Notes under the pieces: model-generated
The model's database searches: none
Told to the model about the DNA's origin: nothing
The model's input: the letters and a program-made list of their open reading frames with translations, nothing else
Position numbers and translations under genes: made by a program
Part shown: in pieces, positions 54,395 through 54,760 of the stretch
Layout: the number at the start of each line of letters is the position of its first letter
How positions within the stretch are numbered: the first letter of the stretch is position 1
Origin: Eledone cirrhosa
Taxonomy: Eukaryota
DNA length: 64,000 bases
Reading direction: 5' to 3'
Assembly (NCBI GenBank): GCA_964016885.1
Contig: OZ024746.1
Span: 93,930,001-93,994,000 of the forward strand

Positions 54395-54759
54395 GTTTTC
54401 GGTACCCGGCCGATTAACTCACTCGATATGCAAATTAGGCTGCTCAGCCGTTAATATGCATAAGGAAAGTATATACTTTCAGACGTTCAACCATCTGGCA
54501 GGAAGGTATACGTTGCTGACGATAGCTAATAAGATTGAAACTAGTACAGCGTTCCTTTGTCAGTGTTGAACAAAAGGGCAACGATGGTTGCTAGACACTG
54601 TACGGCTTAATTCGGGATGTTTGTTTACAAACACACCGAGCATTATAATAAATGTTCGGTGAATCCATACGTACATATATATGTATATATATATATATAT
54701 ATATACATACTACTGTACGTCTGTATACATATATGTATGTACGTATACATACTTATATT

Positions 54760-54760
<1 letters not shown>
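54395..54760 (+). mobile_element. Second octamer+hammerhead repeat family (H6); rearranged copy at ~59285-59648
   Basis: ATGCAAAT at 54428, HHR at 54510, shared TA-rich tail. Confidence 0.6.
54510..54552 (+). ncRNA. Minimal type I hammerhead motif (family H6)
   Basis: acguug-CUGACGA-U-AGCU-aaua-AG(A)U-U-GAAA-CUAG-UA-cagcgu. Palindromic stem III ACUAGU, GUA triplet. Confidence 0.7.

What the first reader, a model, noticed from the sequence alone, without database searches (positions are those of the whole stretch)
54395..54760. Second, unrelated octamer + hammerhead element
Seen: ATGCAAAT (54428) lies ~80 nt upstream of a minimal type I HHR (54510-54552, palindromic stem III ACUAGU, GUA) on the same strand. 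A second copy is at ~59285-59648, and there is no obvious similarity to the 438-nt family. Inference: the same architecture in two families suggests a class of octamer-driven ribozyme retroelements. It appears nested in a Helitron-like element, which might also carry it.
Basis: partly seen in the sequence, partly recalled or inferred. Interest (0 to 1): 0.72.

Follow-up and report, generated by a model that had tools for sequence, protein, structure and literature searches.

The report
Retrozyme carrying a U6-like promoter block
This is a damaged copy of a very abundant non-coding jumping repeat that carries a hammerhead self-cutting RNA motif (a known kind, the retrozymes, likely copied by Penelope-type elements), and each unit also holds a block closely matching the DNA signal upstream of this genome's own U6-type small RNA genes, which would let it start its own transcription; neither cutting nor transcription was tested.

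Summary
The octamer (54428) and the type I hammerhead (54510-54552) are real and sit in a ~430-nt tandem unit; an exact 33-nt ribozyme motif occurs 23,490 times in the genome (control 0). Three claims fail. (1) The family is not unrelated to the 438-nt family: they align collinearly (62% over 295 columns, above all 300 shuffles). (2) It is not Helitron cargo: 0 of 11 other Helitron-like copies carry it; this copy abuts a cut-off Helitron end. (3) The ribozyme is not minimal, and copy 2 has lost GAAA and has its octamer on the other strand. Insertions show Penelope-type footprints: partial tandems, opposed arms, two fixed ends in (TA)n. The octamer is the core of this genome's own U6/U6atac/RNase MRP upstream element (at -77; score 20 bits, as high as real promoters), followed by a U1/U2-like TCAG and a TATA box, but the spacing to TATA is 42, not 46-48. 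Verdict: a non-LTR retrozyme with a probable internal snRNA-type promoter, a layout reported for newt satellite 2. This scan noted the same cassette and arm pattern earlier on other DNA of this genome. No RNA evidence was obtainable.

The parts
54388..54765 (+). Retrozyme copy 1: 0.88 of a ~430-nt unit (consensus 1 to ~377), ending in (TA)n at one of the family's two fixed ends
   Evidence: 96% to consensus
54426..54445 (+). U6/U6atac/MRP-like upstream element containing the octamer ATGCAAAT (54428-54435)
   Evidence: 20.0 bits on a matrix from 5 host promoters; leave-one-out 13.3-20.8
54444..54447 (+). TCAG, like the motif at -56 to -58 of host U1/U2 genes (weak, 4 nt)
54470..54476 (+). TATA-like box, 42 nt after the octamer start and 26 nt after TCAG
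54500..54505 (+). Predicted transcription start (inferred from host spacings), at the 5' foot of the ribozyme's stem I extension
   Evidence: inference; untested
54485..54571 (+). Extended stem I enclosing the ribozyme
54510..54552 (+). Type I hammerhead: U.U at base of stem II, 1-bp stem III with palindromic tetraloop, GUA; this copy has a C-to-A change at 54534 that breaks a stem II pair
54270..54390 (+). 5' end of a separate Helitron-like non-autonomous element, cut off at a 4-nt microhomology (GTTT) with copy 1; a neighbour, not a carrier
59279..59578 (-). Retrozyme copy 2, main arm: octamer at 59537-59544, ribozyme region deleted, ends in (TA)n
59579..59647 (+). Retrozyme copy 2, opposed arm: ribozyme lacking 7 nt including GAAA (dead)
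59644..61160 (-). Broken, 5'-truncated Penelope-like element whose 3' UTR is cut off at a 4-nt microhomology (AACC) with copy 2
   Evidence: family named by eye from motifs, no Pfam hit
24816..25270 (+). Copy of the 438-nt family, a diverged relative with three octamer repeats
61421..61900 (-). Second copy of the 438-nt family

Best explanation
The finding is a truncated copy of a ~430-nt non-coding tandem unit with a type I hammerhead motif (a non-LTR retrozyme) that is likely transcribed from a promoter carried inside each unit, predicted to be cut and circularised by paired ribozymes, and likely pasted into TA microsatellites by Penelope-type enzymes. Shown: unit, tandem and opposed-arm layout, two fixed ends, sequence match of the octamer block to host U6-type promoters, homology with the 438-nt family, independence from the Helitron. 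Inferred: (1) the block binds the host's snRNA-gene factors and starts RNA about 11-16 nt before the catalytic core; (2) read-through into the next unit puts the promoter into the RNA, which is how an upstream-type promoter survives retroposition; (3) with a 1-bp helix III and a U.U at helix II the ribozyme cuts mainly as a dimer through ACUAGU; (4) a Penelope-type reverse transcriptase/endonuclease copies one RNA source from both sides of a break. The two window copies are probably dead remnants.
For: Tandem period 428-439 and 23,490 exact ribozyme motifs. 16 of 28 loci have opposed arms; 33 of 44 outer ends fall at consensus 6(+/-3) or 376-379; 8 of 16 two-armed loci have one end at each site and 0 of 16 have the same site twice (hand tally); these match PLE features in PMC8557442 (passages). 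Lineage variants agree among units of one insertion: 1 of 17 and 1 of 15 loci discordant against 8.2 and 5.5 expected. 95% of 868 cells pair; 3 pairs change on both sides. Host U6 (3 loci), U6atac and MRP carry the element at -76 to -78 with TATA at -30; 0 of 14 other U6 matches and 0 of 14 U1/U2 rows do. Family site 20.0 bits; of 624,149 background positions only 8 score that high, apparently all host promoters, next best 16.0. The octamer block is 19 of 22 identical between the two families against 62% overall, and in the 438-nt family it is not in the same RNA hairpin. Axolotl ribozymes with these two weak features cut better as dimers (PMC7229834 part 3).
Against: No transcription or cleavage data. 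Octamer-to-TATA spacing is 42 (44-45 in the 438-nt family) against 46-48 in all five host promoters. The matrix rests on 5 sequences; the 438-nt family's sites score only 11.8, 10.5 and 4.5, within background. A T6 run in each unit would stop Pol III before the next promoter, so read-through must be assumed. In this family the octamer is also one strand of a predicted hairpin. Covariation is thin, and 19 of 33 aligned rows were picked by a pattern that fixes the core and stems II-III. The 19-of-22 figure was chosen after the alignment. The one Penelope-like family tested shares no sequence with the unit, and the end offset is ~59 nt rather than the 30-40 nt tail described for PLEs. A 2026 preprint found cleavage in only 1 of 9 Xenopus retrozyme dimers.
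Confidence: 0.7

Rival explanations
1. Same retrozyme, but the octamer block is not a working promoter: it is kept as an RNA hairpin or is a relic, and RNA comes from read-through of host transcripts.
For: Octamer is paired in a predicted hairpin in all three sub-lineages folded; spacing to TATA departs from host U6 genes by 4-6 nt; no RNA data.
Against: The match extends beyond the octamer and equals real promoters; the hairpin partner changes between sub-lineages while the octamer strand stays; the 438-nt relative keeps and triplicates the block without that hairpin; start predicted by either host spacing lands at the foot of the ribozyme.
Confidence: 0.22
2. The unit is a constant internal part or cargo of a Helitron and moves by rolling-circle DNA transposition.
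For: A Helitron-like 5' end abuts copy 1; 1 of 29 other loci has such an element within 1.5 kb.
Against: 0 of 11 other Helitron-like copies contain the unit; all 11 continue with their own sequence; the one neighbour (L023) is complete with its own 3' end before the retrozyme; the sequence after copy 1 matches none of these loci; ends and opposed arms fit retroposition.
Confidence: 0.02
3. A satellite or terminal repeat shed from a Penelope-like element, amplified as DNA by unequal crossover, with no circular RNA stage.
For: Model discussed for vertebrates in preprint 10.64898/2026.07.22.740005 (parts 1-3 read); units within an insertion differ by 4.0%, little less than between loci, 5.0%.
Against: Copies are dispersed, short (up to 4.4 units seen), 5'-truncated at variable places, with fixed 3' ends and opposed arms; divergence fits decay after insertion (2.7% from consensus) and lineage sites agree within insertions. 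A linear multimeric RNA template is not excluded.
Confidence: 0.06

Closest known systems
Metazoan non-LTR retrozymes (Cervera and de la Pena 2020, PMC7229834; parts 2-4 of 6 read, supplement not read)
   Same: Short AT-rich tandem units with one type I hammerhead each, non-coding, in a genome with Penelope-like elements; 1-bp helix III with palindromic tetraloop as in HHR_Amex1 and U.U at helix II as in HHR_Amex2.
   Different: Both weak features occur in one ribozyme here. The main text has no hit for octamer, octopus or cephalopod, and its 2 hits for promoter are T7; it describes no internal promoter or fixed arm ends.
Newt satellite 2 (Coats, Zhang and Epstein 1994; not held; title and one citing sentence seen in PMC2220036; octamer plus PSE detail is recalled)
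   Same: Hammerhead tandem repeat with an internal snRNA-type promoter.
   Different: Cited as Pol II-driven. Here the octamer matches the element at -77 of the host's Pol III-type genes (U6, U6atac, MRP) and is absent from its U1/U2 upstream regions; function untested.
Penelope-like elements (Craig et al. 2021, PMC8557442, passages; Li, Clavereau and Pollet 2026 preprint, parts 1-3 of 5)
   Same: 5' truncation, partial tandems, inverted 5' copies, an extension at one end, (TA)n targets, hammerheads near the 3' end.
   Different: No ORF; end offset ~59 nt; no sequence match to the terminal region of the one PLE family tested. The preprint's main text has no hit for promoter or octamer.
Schistosome satellite hammerhead repeat (Ferbeyre et al. 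1998; not held; one citing sentence in PMC2220036)
   Same: Hammerhead repeat cited as having its own internal Pol III promoter.
   Different: Promoter type not seen by me (recalled as tRNA-like); here the candidate is an upstream-type, U6-like block.

Membership tests
Non-LTR retrozyme | Type I hammerhead with intact core in each unit | tested here: met
   38 of 43 monomers; 23,490 exact motifs; window copy 1 has the core but a broken stem II pair, copy 2 lacks GAAA
Non-LTR retrozyme | Head-to-tail repeats of about 150-450 bp | tested here: met
   Period 428-439; sub-lineages ~422 and ~456-538
Non-LTR retrozyme | Non-coding, GC below 50% | tested here: met
   Only low-complexity frames of 70+ aa overlap the copies; 118 of 294 scored consensus positions are G or C
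Non-LTR retrozyme | No LTR, PBS or PPT; long target-site duplication when present | not tested
   No LTR layout seen; PBS, PPT and TSD not searched (ends lie in TA runs)
Non-LTR retrozyme | Expressed as linear and circular RNA; self-cleaves | not testable with these tools
   No RNA holder listed; needs bench work
Penelope-type insertion | 5' truncation, partial tandems, inverted 5' copy, (TA)n target | tested here: met
   16 of 28 loci two-armed; 33 of 44 ends at two sites in TA (hand tally)
Penelope-type insertion | 30-40 bp extension at one end only | tested here: inconclusive
   One-end-only pattern holds (0 of 16 with the same end twice) but the offset is ~59 nt; ~35 nt in the 438-nt family (read)
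Penelope-type insertion | Homology to a PLE terminal repeat | tested here: not met
   One PLE family only (29 loci): matches were an inserted retrozyme in L187 and one low-complexity hit; other PLE families not tested
Minimal hammerhead (PLE type) | Core with very short helices | tested here: not met
   4-bp stem II, 6-bp stem I with bulge and long extension
Helitron cargo | Unit is a constant part between Helitron termini | tested here: not met
   0 of 11 other Helitron-like copies; 1 of 29 other unit loci near one, outside it
U6-type (Pol III type 3) promoter of this genome | Upstream element with octamer core | tested here: met
   20.0 bits against leave-one-out 13.3-20.8
U6-type (Pol III type 3) promoter of this genome | TATA box 46-48 nt after the element | tested here: not met
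   TATA present but at 42
U6-type (Pol III type 3) promoter of this genome | Transcription by Pol III from about 30 nt after TATA | not testable with these tools
   Needs 5' mapping and inhibitors
U1/U2-type (Pol II snRNA) promoter of this genome | TCAG(T) at -56 to -58 with TATA-like run about 24-29 nt later | tested here: inconclusive
   TCAG present, 26 nt before TATA, but only 4 nt and no statistic run

The most novel reading that the evidence does not exclude
An ancestral retrozyme captured the host's U6-type upstream promoter and made it portable: because units are tandem and the RNA is circular, a promoter that ordinary U6 retrocopies lose (0 of 14 keep it) rides inside the transcript, giving a self-transcribing, Pol III type 3-driven ribozyme retroelement lineage with about 20,000 intact promoter blocks, old enough to have diverged to 62% identity.
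Probability: 0.3. Interest if true: 0.7.

Novelty: new variant of a known kind. Interest (0 to 1): 0.44.

Why it matters
How animal retrozymes are transcribed is left open in the two retrozyme papers read here. This family offers a direct test: a 20-nt block as good as the host's own U6-type element, a TATA box and a predicted start just before the ribozyme, conserved across a deep split. If it works, it explains how a non-coding circle keeps an upstream-type promoter through retroposition, and it scatters about 19,000 exact factor-binding blocks over the genome. The fixed paired ends also give a readout for how Penelope-type enzymes mobilise RNA in trans. The two copies in this window are themselves ordinary broken members.

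Tried and rejected
Rfam scan of the window: no hammerhead family listed, only microsatellite-driven miRNA noise. The repeat finder was swamped by simple repeats. RNA runs: no RNA holder listed; four contig runs laid, the RNA-guess run gave nothing and contigs cannot show starts or ends; no evidence either way. Stem II variant C148A looked common (12 of 43) and discordant within arrays (7 of 19 loci); rejected as ascertainment, since the query carries it and none of the 100 listed genome matches does. Idea that recurrent variants are templated by inverted repeats: not supported (p 0.53; top sites p 0.13). RNA-editing scars: A>G 21 on 92 sites against T>C 13 on 84, no test run, no clear excess. 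Homology of the two families' end regions: not significant (606 of 1000 shuffles as good). Pol III termination as source of the 3' end: 438-nt family ends after 4 T in 7 of 11 cases against 6 T internally in 19 of 20, but this family's end lies 8 nt past its T6; inconclusive. Pfam on the window's PLE-like frames: 0 of 3 hit. Papers not held: Coats 1994, Ferbeyre 1998. Searches for prior print of an octamer in retrozymes or of this promoter element found none beyond the newt and schistosome citations; supplements of PMC7229834 and of the preprint were not seen and may list such families. A genome-wide count of octamer and ribozyme on the same unit was not obtained; two separate counts stand in for it.

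Full report
Observation. The octamer is at 54428 and a type I hammerhead layout at 54510-54552 on the same strand: stem I ACGUUG/CAGCGU, core CUGACGA, a U.U apposition, stem II, GAAA, helix III of one pair closing the palindromic loop of ACUAGU, and GUA. Rfam did not list it. The second copy is rearranged: window 54396-54515 and 54573-54793 match the minus strand at 59578-59457 and 59470-59248, while 54514-54589 matches the plus strand at 59579-59647 with 7 nt including GAAA missing. So copy 2 has no working ribozyme and its octamer is on the other strand.

The family. The window lies in a 3.0-Gb animal genome (G000; I guessed a cephalopod from size and TA content and used that only to choose paper search terms). 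A DNA search gave 363 candidates, 40 scored, 30 loci fetched. These show head-to-tail units of 428-439 nt; 43 near-full monomers from 29 loci (L013 dropped, it overlaps L006) give a 429-nt consensus with 2.7% mean divergence. An exact 33-nt ribozyme motif occurs 23,490 times and an exact 30-nt octamer block 19,307 times, controls 0. The first 30 motif loci show three sub-lineages, with the octamer 88, 80 and 88 nt before the core. The consensus stem II is AGCU/AGCU; the window copy has a C-to-A change that none of the 100 listed genome matches carries. On 31 distinct rows 95% of cells pair and three pairs change on both sides; this is modest, and 19 of the 33 rows were selected by a pattern fixing the core. 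The 96-nt region folds with z -3.0 for a consensus-like copy and -1.8 for the window copy. The ribozyme is full-size rather than minimal, and joins the two weak features of the axolotl ribozymes that cut better as dimers.

Not Helitron cargo. The sequence before copy 1 is the 5' end of an abundant element (808 candidates) whose copies end in a hairpin and CTAG, features I recall as Helitron-like; no Rep/helicase was tested. All 11 other copies fetched continue with their own sequence and none holds the unit; the window's copy breaks off at a shared GTTT. One of 29 other unit loci has such an element nearby, complete and outside the unit.

Not unrelated. The 438-nt family (2,599 candidates, 25 loci) aligns with this one collinearly from octamer through ribozyme to near the 3' end: 183 of 295 columns, score 39.5 against a shuffle maximum of 19 in 300; the part after the ribozyme alone beats 500 of 500 shuffles and the stretch between the motifs 1999 of 2000. 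The shared architecture is inherited, so it is not two independent cases; it does show the octamer block surviving a deep split (19 of 22 columns; binomial p 0.012, chosen post hoc).

How it moves. By hand tally (28 loci, short low-complexity hits dropped), 16 have two opposed arms, 33 of 44 outer ends lie at consensus 6(+/-3) or 376-379 running into (TA)n, 8 of the 16 have one end at each site and none has the same site twice; 1 of 44 ends is near the cleavage site, and arms run through it for up to 4.4 units. Loci were the best hits to the window copy, so the sample is biased to long, young copies. Partial tandems, inverted 5' copies, a one-sided extension and TA targets are described for Penelope-like elements, which are proposed as retrozyme mobilisers. 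Two lineage variants agree across units and arms of one insertion (1 of 17 and 1 of 15 discordant; 8.2 and 5.5 expected), so one source is copied; circle or linear multimer cannot be told apart. A broken Penelope-like element abuts copy 2; its family is abundant, ends in its own hammerhead-like motif and (TA)n, but shares no sequence with the unit, so the actual partner is not identified.

What the octamer is. I looked at the genome's own small-RNA genes before consulting earlier notes. Three U6 loci, the best of 6 U6atac matches and the single RNase MRP gene carry ATG(C/G)(A/T)AAT at -76 to -78 and TATA at -30; 14 other U6 matches, mostly retrocopy-like, do not have it there, nor do 14 U1/U2 rows, which share TCAG(T) at -56 to -58. 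The unit then has TCAG and TATA; either host spacing puts the start at 54500-54505, just before the ribozyme. Against: octamer-to-TATA is 42, not 46-48; the 438-nt family's sites score 11.8 or less; a T6 run would stop Pol III before the next unit; and the octamer also sits in a predicted hairpin in this family, though not in the same way in the 438-nt family. The polymerase is unresolved; the block looks like a hybrid of the two host elements.

Comparison and novelty. It meets every testable sequence feature of non-LTR retrozymes; expression and cleavage were not testable. An internal snRNA-type promoter is cited for newt satellite 2 and an internal Pol III promoter for a schistosome repeat (originals not held). 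My searches found no paper describing a U6-type element in a retrozyme, but unseen supplements and unheld papers may. Earlier notes of this scan report the same cassette and arm pattern on other DNA of this genome; they are not independent support. Verdict: new variant of a known kind; retrozyme identity about 0.9, working internal promoter about 0.65-0.7, specifically Pol III type 3 about 0.3; interest 0.44.

Noticed in passing
window 59644-61160 (-): Broken Penelope-like element in the same orientation as copy 2's main arm and joined to it at a 4-nt microhomology; the rest of its 3' UTR is not on the far side. Either a deletion after insertion or a template switch between retrozyme and PLE RNA.
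   Followed up: partly
L160-L188, about 1.15-1.3 kb after the ORF stop: This PLE family ends in a hammerhead-like motif with a long stem II and palindromic helix III (AUGCGCAU), then CTTATATTAT and (TA)n; the last bases resemble one of the retrozyme's two ends (CTTATAT).
   Followed up: partly
L006 1061-2733: Four tandem units alternate in two linked variants (units 2 and 4 share them), as a dimeric template copied twice or a later duplication would give.
   Followed up: partly
host U1/U2 upstream regions (L068-L070, L106-L118): Pol II-type snRNA genes here have TCAG(T) at about -57 and a TATA-like run near -30; the 438-nt family's repeats contain GATCAGTGGAT and ATCAGTCAC, also seen upstream of two U2 loci.
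   Followed up: partly
L093 (U6 match, octamer at -275) and L111 (near a U1 gene): Two further high-scoring U6-type elements (14.2 and 15.5 bits): possibly a U6 promoter displaced by an insertion and an unannotated Pol III gene.
   Followed up: no
window 58750-58903, also 39643-39834, 16485-16644, 38416-38641: Another short repeat family that forms palindromic two-armed insertions in TA runs and contains GUCGAAAC; may be a further ribozyme-bearing element.
   Followed up: no
window 47109-47374, 42019-42313, 15236-15619, 14865-15073: Several long self-inverted segments, probably two-armed insertions of other families.
   Followed up: no
runs X5 and X6 (organisms C and D): A few contigs match this unit, including the diverged sub-lineage; origin of these runs unknown, so not taken as evidence of spread.
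   Followed up: no
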